Shown here one piece after another: positions 21,784 to 29,328 of a DNA stretch of 32,000 bases. Made by a program: the position numbers and the translations under genes. Under the pieces are notes generated by a model. That model saw only the letters and a program-made list of their open reading frames with translations. It made no database searches and was not told where the DNA came from. Position 1 is the first letter of the stretch. Each line of letters begins with the position of its first letter. The DNA lies in NCBI RefSeq assembly GCF_001306055.1, contig NZ_LGHJ01000006.1, positions 90,001 through 122,000 of the forward strand, written 5' to 3'. The DNA comes from Bellilinea caldifistulae. Its GTDB lineage: Bacteria; Chloroflexota; Anaerolineae; Anaerolineales; Anaerolineaceae.

Positions 21784-21796
21784 GATTGACCCGGCT

Positions 21797-21864
21797 CCCC
21801 GACGTTTGACTCACCTGCGCCGCGAAGCACAGCGAGGCGGTGTCAGGGGAAGCGCATGTTGGGC
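21797..21864 (-). repeat. attC site (terminal, most degenerate) of the ble-like/gyrI-like cassette
   Basis: On the - strand it reads GCCCAAC ... GTCGGGG. The internal sequence is homologous to the other attCs (cacctgcgcc...gcacagcgaggcgg...gtcagggg). Confidence 0.6.
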
Positions 21865-21880
21865 GGCGTTCTTTCAGGAA

Positions 21881-22225
21881 TTAATCATCTTCAAAGAAAA
21901 AGAGCCCGTTTCCATCCATATCAAGCGCGACAAACTCTTTCCTGCCCCAAGACTTTTCTTCTAAAGCCCCGTTTGGATGGATAACCTCTGCTTGCTGGTA
22001 CTCCTTATACAACACTTCAATATTGTCTACCGCTATCCTGCAAGCAGTGTTTTCGGCGATATTCTTATCCTGACATTCCCATAAATGAATTTCCACCGAG
22101 TCACGCTTCACGGCAGCATAATCGCCATAGTTGAAAAGCTCCACAAAGCCAAATTTGCTCTTATAAAATTCGACCGAAGCCTTTACATTAGCAGCAGGGA
22201 ATTTAGGGACAACATATTTAAACAT
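21881..22225 (-). CDS. Bleomycin-binding-protein-like glyoxalase/VOC superfamily protein
   Basis: 114 aa. The pattern FYKSKFGF..., GDYAAVKRDSVEIHLWE..., SWGRKEFVALDMDGNGLFFFEDD parallels Ble/BLMA proteins (recalled: ...PWGREFALRDPAGNCVHFV). The RBS AGGAG lies 5 nt before the ATG. Confidence 0.7.
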   Translation of the reverse strand: MFKYVVPKFPAANVKASVEFYKSKFGFVELFNYGDYAAVKRDSVEIHLWECQDKNIAENTACRIAVDNIEVLYKEYQQAEVIHPNGALEEKSWGRKEFVALDMDGNGLFFFEDD

Positions 22226-22248
22226 AGTCTGCTCCTATCTATGAACGC

Positions 22249-22719
22249 CTACAAAATCGGAACACAAAAGTCCATAGTATGCTCGTAGTAGACCTCATAA
22301 CTGGGACGTTGCGGGTCTACAATCAGTTGATGTTGTGGCACATACTCCGCAAAGAAACGCCCGATAGTCTCTCCTATCGTATTTGAGTCTTTCTCAAGTG
22401 ATAGGATTGCATAACGCCCACCTGGTAGTTCTTTTGTTTGGACACCTTCGGTGTCTCGGGAAATGGACTCAGGAAGTTCTAGTGCGCACTCATAACCAAC
22501 TAATTGAGCGCCGTTGGTGCGTGGGATGCCAATTACCTTTAGGGTTGAAGGGTCGAAGCCGCACCGTTGAGCCCAGTCTTTTATATGTTGAAAACCATCC
22601 CGAATTTGTTCGTTATAACTACCCGTCGCTTGTTGTAGTTGGCAAGACACATAGACGATAAAGGCAGGTGTCAAATCTTGTATAGTAACGTGTAATGGTT
22701 GTTCAGTAAAAGTGTTCAT
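22249..22719 (-). CDS. GyrI-like small-molecule-binding domain protein
   Basis: 156 aa starting at MNTFTEQPLHV, with the RBS GGGAGA. ELPGGRYAILSLEKDSNTIGETIGRFFAEYVP ... YEVYY is the typical GyrI-like (SbmC/AraC effector-domain) pattern. The longer ORF start at 23013 reads through the attC and is rejected. Confidence 0.7.
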   Translation of the reverse strand: MNTFTEQPLHVTIQDLTPAFIVYVSCQLQQATGSYNEQIRDGFQHIKDWAQRCGFDPSTLKVIGIPRTNGAQLVGYECALELPESISRDTEGVQTKELPGGRYAILSLEKDSNTIGETIGRFFAEYVPQHQLIVDPQRPSYEVYYEHTMDFCVPIL

Positions 22720-22784
22720 AAAAAGTCTCCCATGCTGAAATTGTGAACGACAAAGCGTGTTGGTGTGGTGGAACGGATTAAGCC

Positions 22785-22853
22785 GCCCAACGAGCGGCGC
22801 ATCACCTGTGGCGAGCCGCGCAGCGGAGCGTCCGCTGCAAACGGTTGTTAGGC
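22785..22853 (-). repeat. attC site of the DHFR-like cassette
   Basis: On the - strand it reads GCCTAAC ... GTTGGGC, with complementary ends. The central gcgcagcggagcg block is shared with the other attCs. It begins 6 nt after the cassette stop codon. Confidence 0.65.
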
Positions 22854-22858
22854 CGCCC

Positions 22859-23497
22859 TCACCGACGCACATAGCGCAAGTGTGTGGCGGCTGGACTATC
22901 AAGAACCCTGTCAATGCGAAACTGCGGCAACGGCTCGCGCAGGTTTTCGAAGAGACGCCGCCCGCCACCGAACAACACGGGGGCCAGGGCGATTTCCAGC
23001 TCGTCAACGACACCCAGGTTCAGGTACTGCTGGATCACATCCGCTCCACCCGCGATACGAATATCACGACTGCCTGCGGATTCCCGAGCCAACTCTAGGG
23101 CACGCTCTGGCCCGTCATTGATGAAATAAAAGGTCGTTCCACCAGGGCGTACCCAGGGATTCCGATTCTCGTGAGTAAGAACGTATACCGGCGTGTGAAA
23201 CGGAGCCTCCTCTGGCCAACCACGCTCGCCACCGTCGAACATTCGCTTGCCCATGATGTTGGCTCCGATACGCTCCGTGGTGGTGCGAAGCAATTCATTG
23301 ACTGGGCCGGTCTCTCCACCTGGTCCAAGCTTGAGATTCTCGCGGAAGTACTGTTGATTAAATATCCAGCCCATCAGCGCACCCCACTTGGCGCCCCAGT
23401 CCTTGTAGTCTGGGTTGTCCCAGTTCTCCATGGTCATTCCTTCCGGTGCGATGTAGCCATCGAGACTAAGGCTAATGTTGACGAATACTTTGCTCAT
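22859..23497 (-). CDS. Dihydrofolate reductase-like (RibD C-terminal domain family) protein
   Basis: 212 aa. VFVNISLSLDGYIA ... IMGKRMF ... PVYVLTH ... IRIAGGADVIQQYLNLGVVDELEIALAPVLFGGGRRLF is the RibD_C/YwjB-type pattern. The RBS is GGGAGA. Confidence 0.8.
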   Translation of the reverse strand: MSKVFVNISLSLDGYIAPEGMTMENWDNPDYKDWGAKWGALMGWIFNQQYFRENLKLGPGGETGPVNELLRTTTERIGANIMGKRMFDGGERGWPEEAPFHTPVYVLTHENRNPWVRPGGTTFYFINDGPERALELARESAGSRDIRIAGGADVIQQYLNLGVVDELEIALAPVLFGGGRRLFENLREPLPQFRIDRVLDSPAATHLRYVRR

Positions 23498-23525
23498 GAT
23501 TCTCCCTTCGCGTGTTCGGATGTCA

Positions 23526-23602
<77 letters not shown>

Positions 23603-23629
23603 AACCCGTGGTTCTTTGAAATAAGCCTT

Positions 23630-24193
23630 TCAAACAATCCTTTCCATTTCCATCTGATCTTGACGATCAGGACGAATCCAGAATAAAGCAATGTTGGCTT
23701 CTCTACATAATTCAGCCAATATATCTCGTCGAATTCTACCATTCCACTTGCCACTCAGATAGCCACTGCTTTGTGACGTAAATACGAAATCAGCAATAAC
23801 TTCGGCTCGCCCGTCCTGCAAAATGCCTGAAATTTGTTTCAATGATTCTATGTCTTCCGACAAAACGCTTTTAAAGCGACGCCTATGTTGTTGAGGTGAG
23901 TGCCCCCAGCGCTGGAAGGCTTTTATCTGAACAACAAGTACAGGCTGGACACACCCCGGGGTGGTATTGGCTTGGCCTATGACAAGATCAAACTTGCGCT
24001 CTCCCCGAGAAACTCCGCAGAGACGGGTTTCGCTGTAAATTTCTGAAAGCGGACATCCATTTTCGAGAAGCCGATAGTAAAGATAAGCCGCTACGTCTGC
24101 TTCCAGCAAAGGAAAGAACTTCTTCTGATTGAAAGCATCACACAAGTCTTGTAAAGACCTTTGGAGTAAATCAAAAGCACTCTTAGTATCCAA
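23630..24193 (-). CDS. Uncharacterised 187-aa cassette protein with a PD-(D/E)xK / Mrr-catalytic-like signature (E31 ... D69 ... Q89-I-K91)
   Basis: TTG start at 24193 with GGAGA 9 nt upstream; there is no upstream ATG or GTG in frame. LLEADVAAYLYYRLLENG ... RKFDLVIG ... VLVVQIKAFQRW parallels the neighbouring Mrr-like protein (FERLIQRFLRESGF ... GGIDGRG ... VIFQCKRWQ). Confidence 0.55.
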   Translation of the reverse strand: MDTKSAFDLLQRSLQDLCDAFNQKKFFPLLEADVAAYLYYRLLENGCPLSEIYSETRLCGVSRGERKFDLVIGQANTTPGCVQPVLVVQIKAFQRWGHSPQQHRRRFKSVLSEDIESLKQISGILQDGRAEVIADFVFTSQSSGYLSGKWNGRIRRDILAELCREANIALFWIRPDRQDQMEMERIV

Positions 24194-24225
24194 CTCTAAT
24201 GCTCTCCATTGTTCATGAAAGGGCT

Positions 24226-24297
24226 GGCTAACGGTTTGCGCTTCACCTGCGCCGTGAAGCGCAGCGGAGCGGCGTCAGGTGGAAGCGCGTGTTAGCC
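24226..24297 (-). repeat. attC site of the DpnI-like cassette (best preserved)
   Basis: On the - strand it reads GGCTAAC acgcgcttcCacctgAcgcc ... ggcgcaggtgaagcgc aaacc GTTAGCC. The R boxes are perfectly complementary and the arms pair with two extrahelical bases. It begins 3 nt after the stop codon. Confidence 0.8.
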
Positions 24298-24300
24298 CGC

Positions 24301-25083
24301 CTATTGCATAGATCGGTAAATTTTACGATATACACCTGGCTTGATAAACTGTATCAAGCCCAAGTCTCTGATAATTTGAAGTTGTTGCCTAATCTTGGCT
24401 CGTATGTTTTGGTTAGCGGGATAGGATTTAGCCAATTCTTTCTCATAAGCGTACACTTGTTGAAGTGTGAACTGTTGGGGTAGTGATTCTACTATCCGTA
24501 GGACGAGAGCAACCCATCCCCTTTGGTCCAAGGTTAGCGTTGACACAGAATGAGCAGTCTGCCATTGCAACCTGACTATTGTTGGTGGGCTTGCTGAACC
24601 ATTTTGCACCACATCTACAAATGCAGTACATGGTATAGATTCAAGTGCCAATAAGCACCCTTGCCAACCCGCGCGTCGCGCTTGTGGACCTAAAGGGCGA
24701 CGAGGAATGATGCTTTGTTCAGTTATCCACGACCGATGAAGTATTCTAACCTGTTGAACAGATAGGTTCTTGAGATCATATTGTAGGAGGATCAGGGAAG
24801 GATGCCTTCCATTCTTAATTGCTTGGATTGTGGTATTGTATTCTGCCCCTAGTATCTTCTTCCCAAAAGGTTTTGATTGGCTTTTAAGTTGATAGGTTTC
24901 CCCACAAGACTGACACTGAAAATCAGATGTGCGTGAGTTCGCCGGCAAAAGAGACAATGTCCCGCCACAAGAAGGACATTCAAGATTGTCGGATGCCCAC
25001 GCTTCCGTAAGAATACGCGCTTTCTGCGACGCACTCTTGTAACCTTGTATTTTACTAAGATATCTTGAAAAACCAATATCCAT
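24301..25083 (-). CDS. DpnI-family methyl-directed (G-m6A-TC type) restriction endonuclease homologue
   Basis: 260 aa. YKSASQKARILTEAW...CPSCGG...DFQCQSCGETYQLKS, IIPRRPLGPQARRAGWQGC and the C-terminal IRAKIRQQLQIIRDLGLIQF..GVYRKI closely parallel the DpnI sequence as I recall it (YKSNSQKARILTEDW, IIQRKPLAPTARRAGWIGC, IKEKIRQQLQILRDKEIIEF). Confidence 0.85.
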   Translation of the reverse strand: MDIGFSRYLSKIQGYKSASQKARILTEAWASDNLECPSCGGTLSLLPANSRTSDFQCQSCGETYQLKSQSKPFGKKILGAEYNTTIQAIKNGRHPSLILLQYDLKNLSVQQVRILHRSWITEQSIIPRRPLGPQARRAGWQGCLLALESIPCTAFVDVVQNGSASPPTIVRLQWQTAHSVSTLTLDQRGWVALVLRIVESLPQQFTLQQVYAYEKELAKSYPANQNIRAKIRQQLQIIRDLGLIQFIKPGVYRKIYRSMQ

Positions 25084-25101
25084 AATAACATCTCAAGAGC
25101 A

Positions 25102-25118
25102 GGCTAACGGTGTTAGCC
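25102..25118 (-). repeat. Collapsed attC remnant (R boxes only: GGCTAAC-ggt-GTTAGCC) between the Mrr-like and DpnI-like ORFs
   Basis: The ends and flank (GTTAGCCCGC) are the same as in attC 24226-24297, but the ~50-bp internal stem-loop is missing. Confidence 0.6.
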
Positions 25119-25125
25119 CGCTTTT

Positions 25126-25974
25126 TTATAGCGAAGCAAACCAATTTTTATCAACCGACACCTTTTCAACCTGGATTTTTTCGGTTTTTACGCCTAAAGC
25201 CAACTCTCGCAATTTTTCAACCAACTGATCGCCATCTATCAAATCAATTGCAGGTGCGCCATCACGGGTGGCTTCCCATACGGCATCTTTGGTAAATGTT
25301 CCCGTTGTAACCAGTAAACCTTTATCGGCTCGTCCAACCATTGCGCCACGAAAATCTCTTACTTGATTTGCCCTTACTGCGCCTTGCCAGCGTTTACACT
25401 GAAAAATTACATGAAAACTCAATAAACCACCCAAGCGCATAATACCACGACCATCTATACCCCCATCTCCACTGCGCCCTGTAACTTCAACTTGAATAAA
25501 ACCAGATTCTCGTAAAAATCGTTGTATCAGTCTTTCAAAGGCATCTGGCTCCATTTTCATCAGCGTTTCGAGCAACTCTTCTTGCCAAGTGAGCGTTTTG
25601 CTTTCTTCGTCAACTTCAGTGGCTTCTAAACGTTCTGCCCGTAATTGCCCTCGCACTACTCTGACAACTTCCTTTTCATTTACATCTGTCAGGTTTCTGC
25701 CTTCAGGAGTTAATGCCCAAACACCACGACTAGAATTTTCAAGAATCCCGTACCTTTTCAAATAACTGCGTGTCCATGCTAACCGATATTCAAATTCAGT
25801 TTGTCCACCACGTTTTGAATCGTGCAAAATATCCAACTGCTCATCTTGCAAGCCTAAAATTTCTGCAACCTTACTGTTGATTTCTTCAACTGTTCCCGAT
25901 CCACCCAATTTTTTCATCGCTCGGAGTAGGGGATTCATCATTTCGTCATAGGTAGGAATATTGTTCTTTGACAT
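25126..25974 (-). CDS. mrr: Mrr-like type IV (modification-dependent) restriction endonuclease
   Basis: 282 aa. The N-terminal Mrr_N-type winged helix is IPTYDEMMNPLLRAMKKLGGSGTVEEINSKVAE. The C-terminal Mrr catalytic block is FERLIQRFLRESGF...GDGGIDGRG...FQCKRW...VRDFRGAM. Confidence 0.85.
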   Translation of the reverse strand: MSKNNIPTYDEMMNPLLRAMKKLGGSGTVEEINSKVAEILGLQDEQLDILHDSKRGGQTEFEYRLAWTRSYLKRYGILENSSRGVWALTPEGRNLTDVNEKEVVRVVRGQLRAERLEATEVDEESKTLTWQEELLETLMKMEPDAFERLIQRFLRESGFIQVEVTGRSGDGGIDGRGIMRLGGLLSFHVIFQCKRWQGAVRANQVRDFRGAMVGRADKGLLVTTGTFTKDAVWEATRDGAPAIDLIDGDQLVEKLRELALGVKTEKIQVEKVSVDKNWFASL

Positions 25975-26006: not shown

Positions 26007-26013
26007 GACTAAC
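26007..26013 (-). other. Probable attI/first-cassette recombination junction (GTTAGTC on the - strand)
   Basis: A GTTRRRY-type core lies 32 nt upstream of the first cassette ATG, at the edge of the AT-rich intI-proximal spacer. Confidence 0.4.
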
Positions 26014-26136: not shown

Positions 26137-26164
26137 ATTATATTAAACTAGGGAAAAATTTCAA
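26137..26164 (-). promoter_or_regulatory. Near-consensus sigma70-type promoter TTGAAA-N16-TATAAT directed into the cassette array (candidate Pc)
   Basis: On the - strand the sequence reads cagTTGAAAtttttccctagtttaaTATAATc. It sits 9 nt upstream of, and divergent from, the intI remnant ATG at 26173. Confidence 0.55.
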
Positions 26165-26172
26165 CTGTTTTT

Positions 26173-26830
26173 ATGCCTGATCCATCCTCTCCAAGACCCA
26201 AAAAACTTCTCGATCTGCTTCGAGATGCCATCCGGCTGAAATGGGTATCGCTGAGATCGAAGCCTTCCTCACCCATCTGGCGAAAGACGAGCATGTTTCT
26301 GCCTCTACTCAAAACCAGGCCTTGAGCGCACTTATCTTTCTCTACCGTGATGTGCTTGACTTACCCCTCAATTTGACATTTCAGTCAGTTCAGGCGAGGA
26401 GGCCAAAACATCTGCCGACGCTAGTTTCGAAGACTGAGGTCGAGCGAGTGCTGCGCCAGATGAGCGGAGAAACCCTGCTGATGACCCAGCTTATGGCAGC
26501 GGCTGACGTTTGCGGGTGAAAGATGTGGACTTTGAACAACACCGGATTATGGTGCGTGACCCAAAAGGAAGGCATGATCGCACGACCAGGCTGCCAGTAA
26601 CCCTTGAGCTGTCCTTGCAAGCTTAACTCCAGGCGGTGAAACACCTTCATGAGCGCGACCTTGCTTCCGGGCACGGAGAAGTGCCCCTTCCCTCGGTTCT
26701 GGGCAGGTGTTCGTACTGTTCAGGAGCTATTAGGGCATAAGGATGTAAAGACGACCAGGATATATACCCACGCGCTTAATCGCGGAGCCAATGCTGTGCG
26801 CAGCCCGCTGGATGAGAGAGGCTGCTTGTT
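26173..26830 (+). pseudogene. intI: Integron integrase (IntI-type tyrosine recombinase) pseudogene
   Basis: Fragments lie in three frames: MPDPSSPRPKKLLDLLRDAIRLK, then EIEAFLTHLAKDEHVSASTQNQALSALIFLYRDVL...RRPKHLP, then [29 protein letters not shown]...(TAA at 26624)...[15 protein letters not shown], then [35 protein letters not shown]. These parallel IntI1 blocks as recalled ([60 protein letters not shown]). The region between GEVPLP and IRTVQ is deleted. Confidence 0.8.
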
Positions 26831-26940
26831 CAAGCTTGTCCCTGCTCTTGTCTGGAGTTTTAATCCTTGCATGGACTCGGTCGAGCTGTGCCAGATCTTG
26901 CTCAAATCGTGCTGCCTAACAAAACTTTTTTGATGAAGTA

Positions 26941-27958: not shown

Positions 27959-28597
27959 TCAAGCCATTTCGGGTTGGATCAGGAACACCCCCGCGCAAAA
28001 CGAAACCGGCTCGAACGCGGCTTGAAAGCCGGCGGCGCGCAGGGCCGGCAGGTCGTCCTCAACCAGCCAGTAGGGTTCTTCGTCCCATGCATCGGCGGCG
28101 GCTTGCTTTGCCTGTTGGCGTGCTTCCGCATTGGGGAAGGCAATATCACCGATCACGATCCAGCCGCCGGGTTCAAGGTGATTGCGCAGGTGTGTGAGCA
28201 GGGCAATTTTGCCAGCCTGATCGAAGTGATGAAAAACATAAGCAGAGACCATCCGCGCGTAATGCTGCGGCACATCGGCGGGCAGCGGATTGCCCAACTG
28301 GTGTTGAAAGAATCTGGCCCCCGGTACTTTGCGGCGGGCAATTTTCAGCATTTCGGCGGAAAAGTCGCTGCCCCACACGCGGCAGCCGGCCTGCACAAAG
28401 CGGGCGGTCAGGTTGCCGGTGCCACAGCCGAGATCCAGCACACTCAAACCGGGCCGAACCCCGGCGCGTTGAAAGACCCGCTCCAGCACCCCGGCGTAGC
28501 CCTCAAAGGGGAGGCCCTGACCGCGCTCGACTTCCGAGTCGTAGTTCTCTGCCCACCGGTCAAATTCCCCAGGCGTGAACAGGCCGTTTACTTCCAC
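27959..28597 (-). CDS. Class I SAM-dependent methyltransferase
   Basis: Motif I VLDLGCGTGNL. I prefer the GTG at 28597 (VEVNGLFTPGEFDRWAENYD), which overlaps the upstream stop by 10 nt. The longer ORF start at 28738 would overlap the upstream gene by about 150 nt. Confidence 0.7.
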   Translation of the reverse strand: MEVNGLFTPGEFDRWAENYDSEVERGQGLPFEGYAGVLERVFQRAGVRPGLSVLDLGCGTGNLTARFVQAGCRVWGSDFSAEMLKIARRKVPGARFFQHQLGNPLPADVPQHYARMVSAYVFHHFDQAGKIALLTHLRNHLEPGGWIVIGDIAFPNAEARQQAKQAAADAWDEEPYWLVEDDLPALRAAGFQAAFEPVSFCAGVFLIQPEMA

Positions 28598-29328
28598 TCG
28601 AACACCAGCGCCGGGAAGTCCGGCAGGTTGATGGTCATTTTGGACGGTTCGGGACTGCCGCACGTTCCCCCAATGCAGTTGCATTTTTCGTCCATCAGGT
28701 TGCTGGTGCAGGAGATGGCGGTGTACTCCACCACCCAATCCCCTCGTACCGTGGGCGGCATGAAGGCGTAAAAGACTCCTTCCGGGTCGGTCATCGCATC
28801 GGTGCGCTGCTGATTGGGTGCTTCGCCCTGGGTGATCATGAATTGAATGCCGCTGATCGGTTTACCGGTGCGGTCGGCCACCCGCCCCATGACGGTCACC
28901 ACGTTCTCCGGCTGAATGACCGGCACAGCCCGTAAATCCACCGGTGATTCAAGCAGTTGGGCAAAAATCCAACCGCTGATGCCCTTATCGTTCTCCACCC
29001 GAATCCACTCGCCGCCGGGGGATTTGCCGAGCACGGTAAAGACCGTCCCTTTGCGCACACTGGCCTGAACGGCAAACAGATAGCCGGGGTTTGCGCGTAC
29101 GTTGACCCAATCCACGGCGGTTTTCACCTCAAAGGGGGCAAACGGTGTGGCCGTCGGCGTGGGGGTGGCGGTGGGCAGGGGGGTGGGTGATGGGGTGAGG
29201 GTGGCGGTCGGCGGTGGTGGGCTGGGGGTGAGCGTGTTGGTCGGCGTGGGGGTGGGTTGCGCCAGCGCGTTGCAGCCGGTCAGCATCAAAATTATGATGA
29301 GAATACCAATCCCGAAAAGAGCGCGCAT
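28588..29328 (-). CDS. Lipoprotein with a PT-rich linker, a bacterial SH3 domain and a carboxypeptidase-regulatory-like domain
   Basis: Signal and lipobox MRALFGIGILIIILMLTGC after the RBS GAGGAGGG. The SH3_3-like segment is VNVRANPG...VLGKSPGGEWIRVENDKGISGWIF. The segment VMGRVADRTGKPISGIQF is CarboxypepD_reg-like. Confidence 0.7.
   Translation of the reverse strand: MRALFGIGILIIILMLTGCNALAQPTPTPTNTLTPSPPPPTATLTPSPTPLPTATPTPTATPFAPFEVKTAVDWVNVRANPGYLFAVQASVRKGTVFTVLGKSPGGEWIRVENDKGISGWIFAQLLESPVDLRAVPVIQPENVVTVMGRVADRTGKPISGIQFMITQGEAPNQQRTDAMTDPEGVFYAFMPPTVRGDWVVEYTAISCTSNLMDEKCNCIGGTCGSPEPSKMTINLPDFPALVFEWK

What the first reader, a model, noticed from the sequence alone, without database searches (positions are those of the whole stretch)
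24301..25974. Two different modification-dependent restriction enzymes (Mrr-like and DpnI-like) carried as adjacent integron cassettes
The intI-proximal ORF (25126-25974) has Mrr_N-like and Mrr catalytic blocks. The next ORF (24301-25083) aligns along its whole length with the DpnI sequence as I recall it: a CxxC...CxxC catalytic domain plus a C-terminal winged helix ending in IRQQLQI.RD. Both families cleave only modified DNA (Mrr: m6A/m5C; DpnI: G-m6A-TC) and need no cognate methyltransferase. That makes them natural single-gene cassettes. Being closest to the candidate Pc promoter implies the highest expression. Inference: the array works as an anti-modified-DNA barrier against Dam-methylated phages or plasmids, and the host should lack GATC adenine methylation.
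Basis: partly seen in the sequence, partly recalled or inferred. Interest (0 to 1): 0.7.

Follow-up and report, generated by a model that had tools for sequence, protein, structure and literature searches.

The report
Two methyl-DNA-cutting enzymes, one fused cassette
A decayed chromosomal integron in the bacterium Bellilinea caldifistulae carries two genuine modification-dependent restriction enzyme genes (Mrr-type and DpnI-type) that are separate mobile cassettes elsewhere but have been welded into one unit here by loss of the recombination site between them; it is a tidy but fairly ordinary example of defence genes in integrons.

Summary
ORF 25126-25974(-) is a full Mrr_N+Mrr_cat protein. 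ORF 24301-25083(-) is a full-length DpnI-family protein: PF06044 2e-55, PF17726 3e-28, E=2.5e-48 to the R.DpnI structure. It keeps the Cys4 zinc site and every residue DpnI uses to read Gm6ATC. The catalytic E64 is Q, but Q is invariant in this clade and common family-wide.

- The locus is integron-derived, but intI is a pseudogene.
- The attC between the two genes is a 23-nt stub (17 bits, against 62-103 bits for the four full attCs).
- In other arrays the same Mrr cassette ends in a ~130-nt attC, and the same DpnI cassette has normal attCs on both sides with other neighbours.
- So these are two formerly independent cassettes, now fused into one two-gene unit. No Mrr/DpnI pairing was seen in 92+9 other loci, and the junction sequence was not found elsewhere.
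- A strong sigma-70-like promoter (11/12) lies upstream. Both genes are under purifying selection.

Host Dam status and enzyme activity could not be tested. Defence and restriction cassettes in integrons are already known, so this is a new member of a known kind.

The parts
26173..26933 (+). intI pseudogene (integron integrase remnant)
   Evidence: The pieces lie in three reading frames with an internal stop. A frame-stitched translation best matches TIGR02249 integron integrase, at 205 bits against a cutoff of 265. It covers only profile positions 36-201 plus a short C-terminal piece carrying the LLGH...IYTH motif.
26137..26164 (-). Pc-like promoter candidate pointing into the array
   Evidence: TTGAAA-16 nt-TATAAT, 11 of 12 matches. 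It lies between the intI start codon and the attI junction, 163 nt upstream of the Mrr-like ATG. This is a consensus match only.
26007..26013 (-). attI/first-cassette junction (G|TTAGTC)
   Evidence: From this point on, the sequence is homologous to the start of the Mrr cassette in L015: GTTAGTC|CGCCCATTGTGTAATCG..CAAAGGTCAACAATG versus GTTAGCC|TGCCGATTCGTAATCG..CAAAGGTCAACAATG.
25126..25974 (-). Mrr-family (Type IV) modification-dependent restriction endonuclease gene
   Evidence: Mrr_N E=2.3e-23 and Mrr_cat E=9.7e-30. mREase_IV E=1.4e-32. dN/dS is 0.05-0.07 against cassette copies in other arrays.
25099..25121 (-). attC stub: remnant of the Mrr cassette's attC with the interior deleted
   Evidence: The sequence is GCGGGCTAACACCGTT|AGCCTGC. 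It is identical to the first 13 nt of the intact ~130-nt attC in L015 (GGCTAACACCGTT|TGCAGCGG...AACCAACCGTT|GGGC) and then joins directly to the DpnI cassette start. It scores 17.4 bits over 29 nt, against 62-103 bits for full attCs. The hairpin is worth only -7.5 kcal/mol, against -30.2 for the neighbouring attC.
24301..25083 (-). DpnI-family (Type IIM) m6A-dependent restriction endonuclease gene
   Evidence: PF06044 E=2.2e-55 and PF17726 E=3.1e-28. E=2.5e-48 to PDB 4ESJ. The catalytic, zinc and Gm6ATC-readout residues are conserved. dN/dS is 0.17-0.23.
24220..24303 (-). attC of the DpnI cassette (intact)
   Evidence: Covariance model score 103 bits. Near-perfect hairpin, -30.2 kcal/mol, z=-5.4. 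Nearly identical attCs follow the DpnI homologs in L005, L006 and L024.
23630..24193 (-). next cassette: 187-aa ORF of unknown function
   Evidence: No Pfam, NCBIfam or PADLOC hit. Only 21 homologs were found. The predicted structure is confident (pLDDT 94) but has no PDB match. Matches to viral PD-(D/E)XK-like predicted structures are weak.
23520..23608 (-). attC of the ORF187 cassette
   Evidence: Covariance model score 76 bits.
22779..22859 (-). attC of the RibD_C cassette (gene at 22859-23497)
   Evidence: Covariance model score 65 bits. RibD_C E=1.1e-13.
21788..21870 (-). terminal attC, decayed at its 3' end, closing the two-gene GyrI-like plus glyoxalase cassette (21881-22719)
   Evidence: Covariance model score 61.6 bits. 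Its R' end reads GTCGGGG, whereas the same cassette in L015 has GTTAGCC.

Best explanation
The region is the promoter-proximal end of a fossilising chromosomal integron in Bellilinea caldifistulae (Anaerolineae). The array consists of an intI pseudogene, an attI junction, four full attC sites and one attC stub.

The first two genes encode two unrelated modification-dependent restriction endonucleases.
- The first is an Mrr-family Type IV enzyme: an Mrr_N winged-helix sensor plus a D...QxK PD-(D/E)XK nuclease.
- The second is a DpnI-family Type IIM enzyme: a Zn-containing PD-(D/E)XK domain plus a C-terminal winged helix. It retains every residue R.DpnI uses to recognise fully methylated Gm6ATC.

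Each gene is an independently mobile cassette in other Chloroflexota arrays. In this genome a deletion between two ACCGTT repeats removed the ~110-nt interior of the Mrr cassette's attC. One repeat sits just inside the 5' R'' box and the other forms the 3' R' box. Only a 23-nt hairpin remains. The two genes now sit 42 bp apart, with no sense-strand terminator, as one fused and probably co-transcribed unit. A strong sigma-70-like promoter lies in the intI-attI spacer upstream.

Inferred function: constitutive restriction of incoming DNA that carries adenine methylation (Dam-type GATC for the DpnI-like enzyme) or other modifications (Mrr). This requires that the host itself does not make those marks.

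Shown here: gene identities, residue conservation, cassette boundaries, the attC deletion, intI decay and purifying selection. Inferred: expression, enzyme specificity, defence role and host methylation state.
For: - Families.
- DpnI functional residues. The residues E25/D53/K66, Cys4, L129/R135/W138/G140, N48/R126/Q18 and K229/R231 are defined in PMC3424567 and PMC4117772. They map to E27/D54/K67, C36/39/57/60, L131/R137/W140/G142, N49/R128/Q20 and K230/R232. Most of these are invariant in 119 homologs.
- Q at the E64 position occurs in 119 of 119 clade members. Among 72 motif-bearing distant genomic homologs it is E in 46 and Q in 26.
- The DpnI cassette has the same 5' boundary (TTAGCCyGCTCTT) and the same attC in three other arrays, each with different neighbours: L005, L006 and L024.
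- The Mrr cassette has the same 5' boundary and an intact long attC in L015/L016 and L022/L023.
- attC covariance model: four full sites score 62-103 bits and the stub scores 17 bits. Non-seed attCs were recovered in other arrays.
- DNA folds.
- intI pseudogene.
- Promoter-like site, and no sense-strand terminator at the stub.
- Purifying selection: dN/dS 0.05-0.23.
- The same structure occurs in an independent read set, DRR198553.
Against: - No expression or biochemical data exist.
- The promoter call is a consensus match in a phylum whose promoters are poorly characterised. The total count of promoter-like hits in the region is not above shuffled expectation.
- Mrr-family specificity cannot be predicted from sequence.
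- Host Dam status is unknown. GATC observed/expected of 0.66 is uninformative, because other palindromes are equally or more depleted.
- A beta-class m6A-type methyltransferase lies nearby. If it methylated GATC, the DpnI-like enzyme would have to be silent or inactive.
- The deletion mechanism (replication slippage versus aberrant IntI recombination at a secondary GTT) is not resolved.
- dN/dS reflects the history of the cassette lineages, not necessarily selection inside Bellilinea.
Confidence: 0.8

Rival explanations
1. One reading: two separate, individually mobilisable cassettes, with the short palindrome between them acting as a minimal but functional attC.
For: The stub keeps the conserved AAC/GTT triplets as a 7+3 bp hairpin (-7.5 kcal/mol, z=-3.3). 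The attC model aligns to it end-to-end at E about 1e-3.
Against: The stub lacks the unpaired central spacer, L boxes, extrahelical bases and the 20-100-nt variable terminal structure that define attC sites (PMC4889954). It scores 17 bits, against 62-103 for the four real sites. The same cassette elsewhere has a ~130-nt attC whose first 13 nt are identical to the stub. The resident integrase is also dead.
Confidence: 0.07
2. The Mrr+DpnI pair is a selected, co-adapted two-gene defence module. The attC was lost because co-expression or co-transfer of two complementary anti-methylated-DNA nucleases is advantageous, and the pair now spreads as one cassette.
For: Two-gene cassettes do move as units. 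The GyrI-like plus glyoxalase pair occurs identically in this array and in L015. Removing the attC places the DpnI-like gene effectively in the first, best-expressed position. The predicted target ranges of the two enzymes are complementary.
Against: The fused junction was not found in any other genome or metagenome contig at exact-match level. None of 92 DpnI-family loci has an Mrr neighbour, and none of 9 Mrr loci has a DpnI neighbour. The array shows general decay, with a dead intI and a degenerate last attC, so neutral loss is sufficient.
Confidence: 0.1
3. The genes are silent or inactive relics in a dead array and provide no barrier. Alternatively, the DpnI-like protein acts only as a methyl-GATC binding protein because E64 is replaced by Q.
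For: intI is a pseudogene and the attC sites are decaying. The catalytic E64 of R.DpnI is Q here.
Against: Both ORFs are full length with all other catalytic residues intact. Q at that position is invariant in 119 close homologs and present in about a third of distant family members. D...QxK is also the normal motif of the Mrr/MspJI nucleases. dN/dS is 0.05-0.23. A near-consensus promoter is present.
Confidence: 0.1

Closest known systems
R.DpnI (Streptococcus pneumoniae), Type IIM restriction endonuclease; Pfam PF06044/PF17726 'Dam-replacing family'; PDB 4ESJ, 4KYW
   Same: The two-domain architecture is the same over the full length, at about 45% identity. The Cys4 zinc site is kept. So are the catalytic residues E, D and K, the methyl-binding cleft (L, R, W, G), the guanine-reading R and N residues, and the winged-helix K and R residues.
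   Different: The catalytic E64 is Q, a clade-wide natural variant. The gene is carried as an integron cassette with its own attC, not in the pneumococcal DpnI/DpnII cassette locus. Activity and specificity are untested.
EcoKMrr / Mrr family Type IV restriction endonucleases (Pfam PF14338 Mrr_N + PF04471 Mrr_cat)
   Same: It has the same two-domain architecture and a similar length. The GDGGID...QxK nuclease motif aligns with the related MspJI and AspBHI catalytic domains.
   Different: No close solved structure exists, and the NCBIfam search gave no hit. Target modification cannot be inferred. Here the gene is a widely disseminated cassette, with copies over 90% identical in many metagenomes.
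Defence and restriction gene cassettes in integrons (BRiCs in mobile integrons, bioRxiv 10.1101/2024.07.02.601719; restriction/R-M enrichment and XbaI R-M cassettes, PMC10661359)
   Same: Compact anti-phage or anti-foreign-DNA genes are carried as attC-bounded cassettes. Multi-gene cassettes also occur.
   Different: Those reports concern Proteobacteria or bulk metagenomes. They did not mention Mrr, DpnI or modification-dependent enzymes in the texts I searched. The host here is an Anaerolineae chromosome with a dead integrase.
CALIN elements with a neighbouring intI pseudogene (Cury et al. 2016, PMC4889954)
   Same: It is a cluster of attC sites next to a recognisable but disrupted integron integrase. 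Integrons are known in Chloroflexi.
   Different: This array additionally shows an internal attC deletion that fuses two cassettes.

Membership tests
DpnI family (Type IIM, PF06044 + PF17726) | N-terminal DpnI catalytic domain and C-terminal DpnI winged-helix domain, both above the curated thresholds | tested here: met
   PF06044 scores 187.6 bits against a cutoff of 26.7. PF17726 scores 98.2 bits against a cutoff of 23. The alignment to 4ESJ covers the full length.
DpnI family (Type IIM, PF06044 + PF17726) | PD-(D/E)XK catalytic residues E25, D53, E64, K66 (PMC3424567) | tested here: inconclusive
   E27, D54 and K67 are present, but E64 is replaced by Q65. Q is invariant in 119 close homologs and occurs in 26 of 72 distant homologs. 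It is therefore probably a functional variant, though it has not been assayed.
DpnI family (Type IIM, PF06044 + PF17726) | Cys4 zinc site from two CxxC motifs | tested here: met
   C36, C39, C57 and C60 are present. In 63 of 119 relatives the third Cys is Ser.
DpnI family (Type IIM, PF06044 + PF17726) | Gm6ATC readout residues: methyl cleft L129/R135/W138/G140; G:C readers N48/R126; Q18; winged-helix K229/R231 (PMC4117772) | tested here: met
   L131, R137, W140, G142, N49, R128, Q20, K230 and R232 are all present.
DpnI family (Type IIM, PF06044 + PF17726) | Cleavage only of Gm6ATC-methylated DNA | not testable with these tools
   This needs purified protein tested on Dam+ and Dam- substrates.
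Mrr family (Type IV) | Mrr_N sensor domain plus Mrr_cat nuclease domain | tested here: met
   PF14338 scores 82.6 bits against a cutoff of 29.5. PF04471 scores 103.5 bits against a cutoff of 21. PADLOC mREase_IV E=1.4e-32.
Mrr family (Type IV) | D...QxK catalytic motif | tested here: met
   GD170GGID174...Q192-C-K194 aligns with the GDGGVD...QAK block of MspJI (4F0P). The assignment of the MspJI catalytic residues is from my own recollection of the literature.
Mrr family (Type IV) | Modification-dependent cleavage with no cognate methyltransferase | not testable with these tools
   No methyltransferase gene lies in the cassette. Activity is untested.
Integron gene cassette | An ORF followed by its own attC (R''-L''...L'-R' hairpin) | tested here: met
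   This is met for the DpnI-like gene, whose attC at 24220-24303 scores 103 bits and folds at -30.2 kcal/mol. For the Mrr-like gene it is not met in the window, where only a 17-bit 23-nt stub remains. It is met for the same Mrr cassette in L015 and L022.
Integron gene cassette | The same cassette, with the same boundaries, found in different arrays with different neighbours | tested here: met
   The DpnI cassette occurs in L005, L006 and L024. The Mrr cassette occurs in L015/L016 and L022/L023.
Complete (functional) integron | Intact integron integrase gene next to attI | tested here: not met
   intI is split over three frames with an internal stop. It lacks profile positions 1-35 and roughly 202-270 of TIGR02249, and its score is below the cutoff.

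The most novel reading that the evidence does not exclude
The attC deletion was selected, not neutral. By removing the hairpin it created a bicistronic 'anti-methylated-DNA' operon in the best-expressed position of the array. With the adjacent 187-aa orphan protein (a possible PD-(D/E)XK-like fold), the array head would then be a three-gene defence block. That would make this a natural example of an integron hard-wiring a combination of modification-dependent nucleases as its integrase decays.
Probability: 0.1. Interest if true: 0.5.

Novelty: new member of a known kind. Interest (0 to 1): 0.3.

Why it matters
The locus adds modification-dependent (Type IV and Type IIM) restriction enzymes, in a Chloroflexota host, to the growing list of defence functions carried as integron cassettes. 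It also gives a clean, sequence-resolved example of two independent cassettes becoming fused through deletion of the intervening attC. The DpnI-like and Mrr-like cassettes are widespread in anaerobic-digester and wastewater Anaerolineae metagenomes. They may therefore shape which methylated phages and plasmids can enter these abundant but poorly studied bacteria. For enzymology, the Q-for-E64 clade of DpnI relatives is a ready source of candidate Gm6ATC-dependent enzymes. None of this overturns current understanding.

Tried and rejected
1. Rfam and tRNA scans of the window found nothing.

2. I suspected that E64 to Q meant an inactivated DpnI. I rejected this because Q is invariant in the clade and common across the family.

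3. I guessed that the third cassette (ORF187) was another nuclease, from its E...D...QxK-like pattern. The model is confident, but there is no PDB match and only weak matches to viral predicted structures. This remains unproven.

4. GATC frequency as a proxy for Dam status is not diagnostic.

5. The exact-match search for the fused junction found nothing in genome or metagenome collections. The source genome itself was also not recovered from genome contigs (one search likewise returned no Anaerolineae locus), so that collection does not expose this region. A zero there is weaker than it looks.

6. The attC model found no sites near 80 distant DpnI-family genes. The model is specific to this attC class, so other attC types could have been missed.

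7. I could not search the rest of the host genome for a dam-type methyltransferase with the tools available.

8. The nearby PF01555 methyltransferase could not be assigned a specificity. Its best PDB relative is M.RsrI, and the match to DpnA is only partial.
Full report
**Observation**

ORF 25126-25974 (282 aa) matches Pfam Mrr_N (E=2.3e-23) and Mrr_cat (E=9.7e-30) over essentially the whole of both profiles. It also matches the PADLOC Type IV methyl-directed restriction enzyme model (E=1.4e-32). Its GDGGID...FQCK block aligns with the nuclease domains of the modification-dependent enzymes MspJI and AspBHI.

ORF 24301-25083 (260 aa) matches Pfam DpnI (E=2.2e-55) and DpnI_C (E=3.1e-28). It matches the PADLOC Type II methyl-directed enzyme model end to end (E=1.8e-62). 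It aligns over residues 9-255 with the crystallised R.DpnI (4ESJ/4KYW, E=2.5e-48). Public sources already name the two proteins 'Dam-replacing family' and 'restriction endonuclease' of Bellilinea caldifistulae. The window comes from scaffold DF967971.1 of GCA_001050215.2, a genome announced in PMC4574363.

**Is the DpnI-like protein likely to be a real Gm6ATC enzyme?**

The DpnI structural papers define four groups of residues:
- the catalytic residues E25, D53, E64 and K66, plus a Cys4 zinc site (PMC3424567);
- the methyl-binding cleft L129, R135, W138 and G140;
- the base readers N48, R126 and Q18;
- the winged-helix residues K229 and R231 (PMC4117772).

Through the alignment these map to E27, D54, Q65 and K67; C36, C39, C57 and C60; L131, R137, W140 and G142; N49, R128 and Q20; and K230 and R232.

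In an alignment of 119 homologs, D54, Q65, K67, L131, R137, W140, G142 and R232 are invariant. The only departure from DpnI is Q in place of the catalytic E64. That Q is present in 119 of 119 clade members. Among more distant genomic family members the position is E in 46 and Q in 26. I therefore read it as a natural D...QxK variant, the same motif the Mrr/MspJI nucleases use, and not as a lesion. Activity remains untested.

**Integron context**

The region 21.5-26.5 kb has 42-50% G+C, against about 60% in the flanks.

On the plus strand at 26173-26933 lie the remains of an integron integrase. The pieces are in three frames with an internal stop. When stitched together they match TIGR02249 'integron integrase' at 205 bits, below the 265-bit cutoff. 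The match covers only profile positions 36-201 and a short C-terminal segment.

I built a covariance model from seven clear attC sites. It finds four full attC sites on the minus strand of the window:
- 24220-24303, 103 bits;
- 23520-23608, 76 bits;
- 22779-22859, 65 bits;
- 21788-21870, 61.6 bits.

The model also recovers attC sites that were not used to build it in other arrays (L015, L024, L006).

In the terms of Cury et al. 2016 (PMC4889954), this is a cluster of attC sites next to an intI pseudogene, in a phylum where integrons are known.

**The junction between the two genes**

Only 42 bp separate the Mrr stop codon from the DpnI start codon. They contain GCGGGCTAACACCGTTAGCCTGC, a 7+3-bp hairpin of -7.5 kcal/mol. 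The neighbouring attC folds at -30.2 kcal/mol. With filters off, the attC model matches the stub at only 17.4 bits across 29 nt, meaning the two ends are present with nothing in between.

Related loci explain this.
- A 94%-identical Mrr gene in L015/L016, and an 88%-identical one in L022/L023, start with the same cassette 5' sequence as in the window.
- Both end in a long attC. In L015 it reads GCAGGCTAACACCGTT-TGCAGCGG...(about 105 nt)...AACCAACCGTT-GGGC.
- The window is identical through GGCTAACACCGTT. It then continues directly with AGCCTGCTCTTGA, which is the conserved first sequence of the DpnI cassette (TTAGCCyGCTCTTGA in L005, L006 and L024).

So the interior of the Mrr cassette's attC was deleted between two ACCGTT repeats. 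This could have happened by replication slippage across the hairpin, or by aberrant integrase recombination at the inner GTT. I cannot tell which. An independent read set, DRR198553, carries the same stub.

**Are they cassettes, and is the pairing meaningful?**

The DpnI-like gene, with the same boundaries and nearly the same attC, occurs in three other arrays behind different genes:
- behind a RibD_C cassette in L006;
- behind an R-M cassette next to a split intI in L024;
- at a contig end in L005.

A 78% homolog sits in a PglZ/BREX-like island without attC sites.

The Mrr-like gene occurs in arrays with other downstream neighbours (L015, L022). It also occurs as a fixed single gene that has lost its attC, between ruvC and a SIS-domain gene in many Anaerolineaceae assemblies.

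Across 92 loci holding a DpnI-family gene and 9 holding this Mrr, none pairs the two. The fused junction sequence was not found by exact search in the genome or metagenome collections. The caveat is that the source region itself is not exposed in genome contigs.

Both genes are therefore real, independently mobile cassettes. Their adjacency and fusion are particular to this array and most simply incidental. The same array also shows a dead integrase and a decayed terminal attC.

**Expression and selection**

A TTGAAA-16-TATAAT site (11 of 12 matches) lies at 26164-26137 on the minus strand, between the intI start codon and the attI junction. It points into the array. The stub hairpin is followed by a T-run only on the antisense strand, so nothing obvious stops read-through from the Mrr gene into the DpnI gene.

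dN/dS against the copies in other arrays is 0.05-0.07 for the Mrr-like gene and 0.17-0.23 for the DpnI-like gene. This is consistent with working proteins in the cassette lineages.

**What could not be settled**

The inference that the host lacks GATC methylation is logically required if the DpnI-like enzyme is active and expressed. The window alone has 109 GATC sites, five of them inside the two genes. I could not scan the rest of the genome.

GATC is mildly under-represented (observed/expected 0.66), but AGCT, CTAG and GGCC are more so.

A 287-aa beta-class methyltransferase lies about 7 kb from the array, just beyond the window. It matches PF01555 at E=1e-49 and has a DPPF motif ahead of FxGxG. 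Its closest solved relative is M.RsrI, and its specificity is unknown.

**Comparison and novelty**

Defence systems and restriction/R-M genes as integron cassettes are established (bioRxiv 10.1101/2024.07.02.601719; PMC10661359). The papers I searched did not mention Mrr, DpnI or modification-dependent enzymes specifically. I therefore rate this a new member of a known kind.

The 'two adjacent cassettes' description needs correcting to 'two former cassettes fused by attC deletion in a decaying integron'. The functional inferences remain plausible but untested.

Noticed in passing
window 21881-22719 (-); L015:4048-4881: A GyrI-like/Cass2 gene (156 aa) and a glyoxalase-fold gene (114 aa) lie about 20 bp apart with no attC between them. 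The identical two-gene layout sits upstream of the Mrr cassette in L015/L016. This is a two-gene cassette that moves as a unit.
   Followed up: partly
window 23630-24193 (-): The third cassette encodes a 187-aa orphan protein with only 21 homologs and no Pfam, NCBIfam or PADLOC hit. The AlphaFold model is confident (pLDDT 94.4). It has no PDB match (best E=0.035) and only weak matches to viral predicted structures, several of them annotated as PD-(D/E)XK nucleases (E=3.6e-4 to 4e-3, TM 0.35-0.5). E31, D69 and K91 are invariant and Q89 nearly so.
   Followed up: partly
L001:1083-1946 (+), equivalent to about 1.1-2.0 kb beyond the window's 3' end: A stand-alone 287-aa beta-class DNA methyltransferase sits among housekeeping genes. 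It matches PF01555 at E=1e-49, has a DPPF motif, and its best PDB relative is M.RsrI. Its specificity is unknown. It matters because the host's own methylation must be compatible with the Mrr-like and DpnI-like enzymes.
   Followed up: partly
window 21788-21870 (-): The last attC of the array has a degenerate R' end (GTCGGGG). The same cassette's attC in L015 is intact (GTTAGCC). Together with the dead intI and the attC stub, this shows general decay of the recombination machinery.
   Followed up: yes
L017-L021, 5001-5849: A 92%-identical copy of the Mrr-like gene is fixed between ruvC and a SIS-domain gene in many Anaerolineaceae assemblies (seen on 149 contigs). Only a remnant of the R'' box is left (GCAGGCTAC) and there is no attC. 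It looks like a cassette-derived gene domesticated in the chromosome.
   Followed up: partly
L024:1166-5437: Another integron carries a split intI, an R-M cassette (a 410-aa N6/N4 methyltransferase plus fragmented RE_Bpu10I ORFs) and then the 95%-identical DpnI-like cassette. A classical R-M system and a modification-dependent enzyme sit side by side in one array.
   Followed up: no
alignment A1, column of window-protein residue C57: In 63 of 119 close DpnI-family homologs the third zinc-ligand cysteine is serine. The Cys4 site described for R.DpnI is therefore not universal in the family.
   Followed up: no
window 27959-28738 (-): A class I SAM methyltransferase (Methyltransf_25/23/11 families) lies next to holB. 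It is a small-molecule or protein type, not a DNA methyltransferase, so it is not relevant to Dam status.
   Followed up: yes
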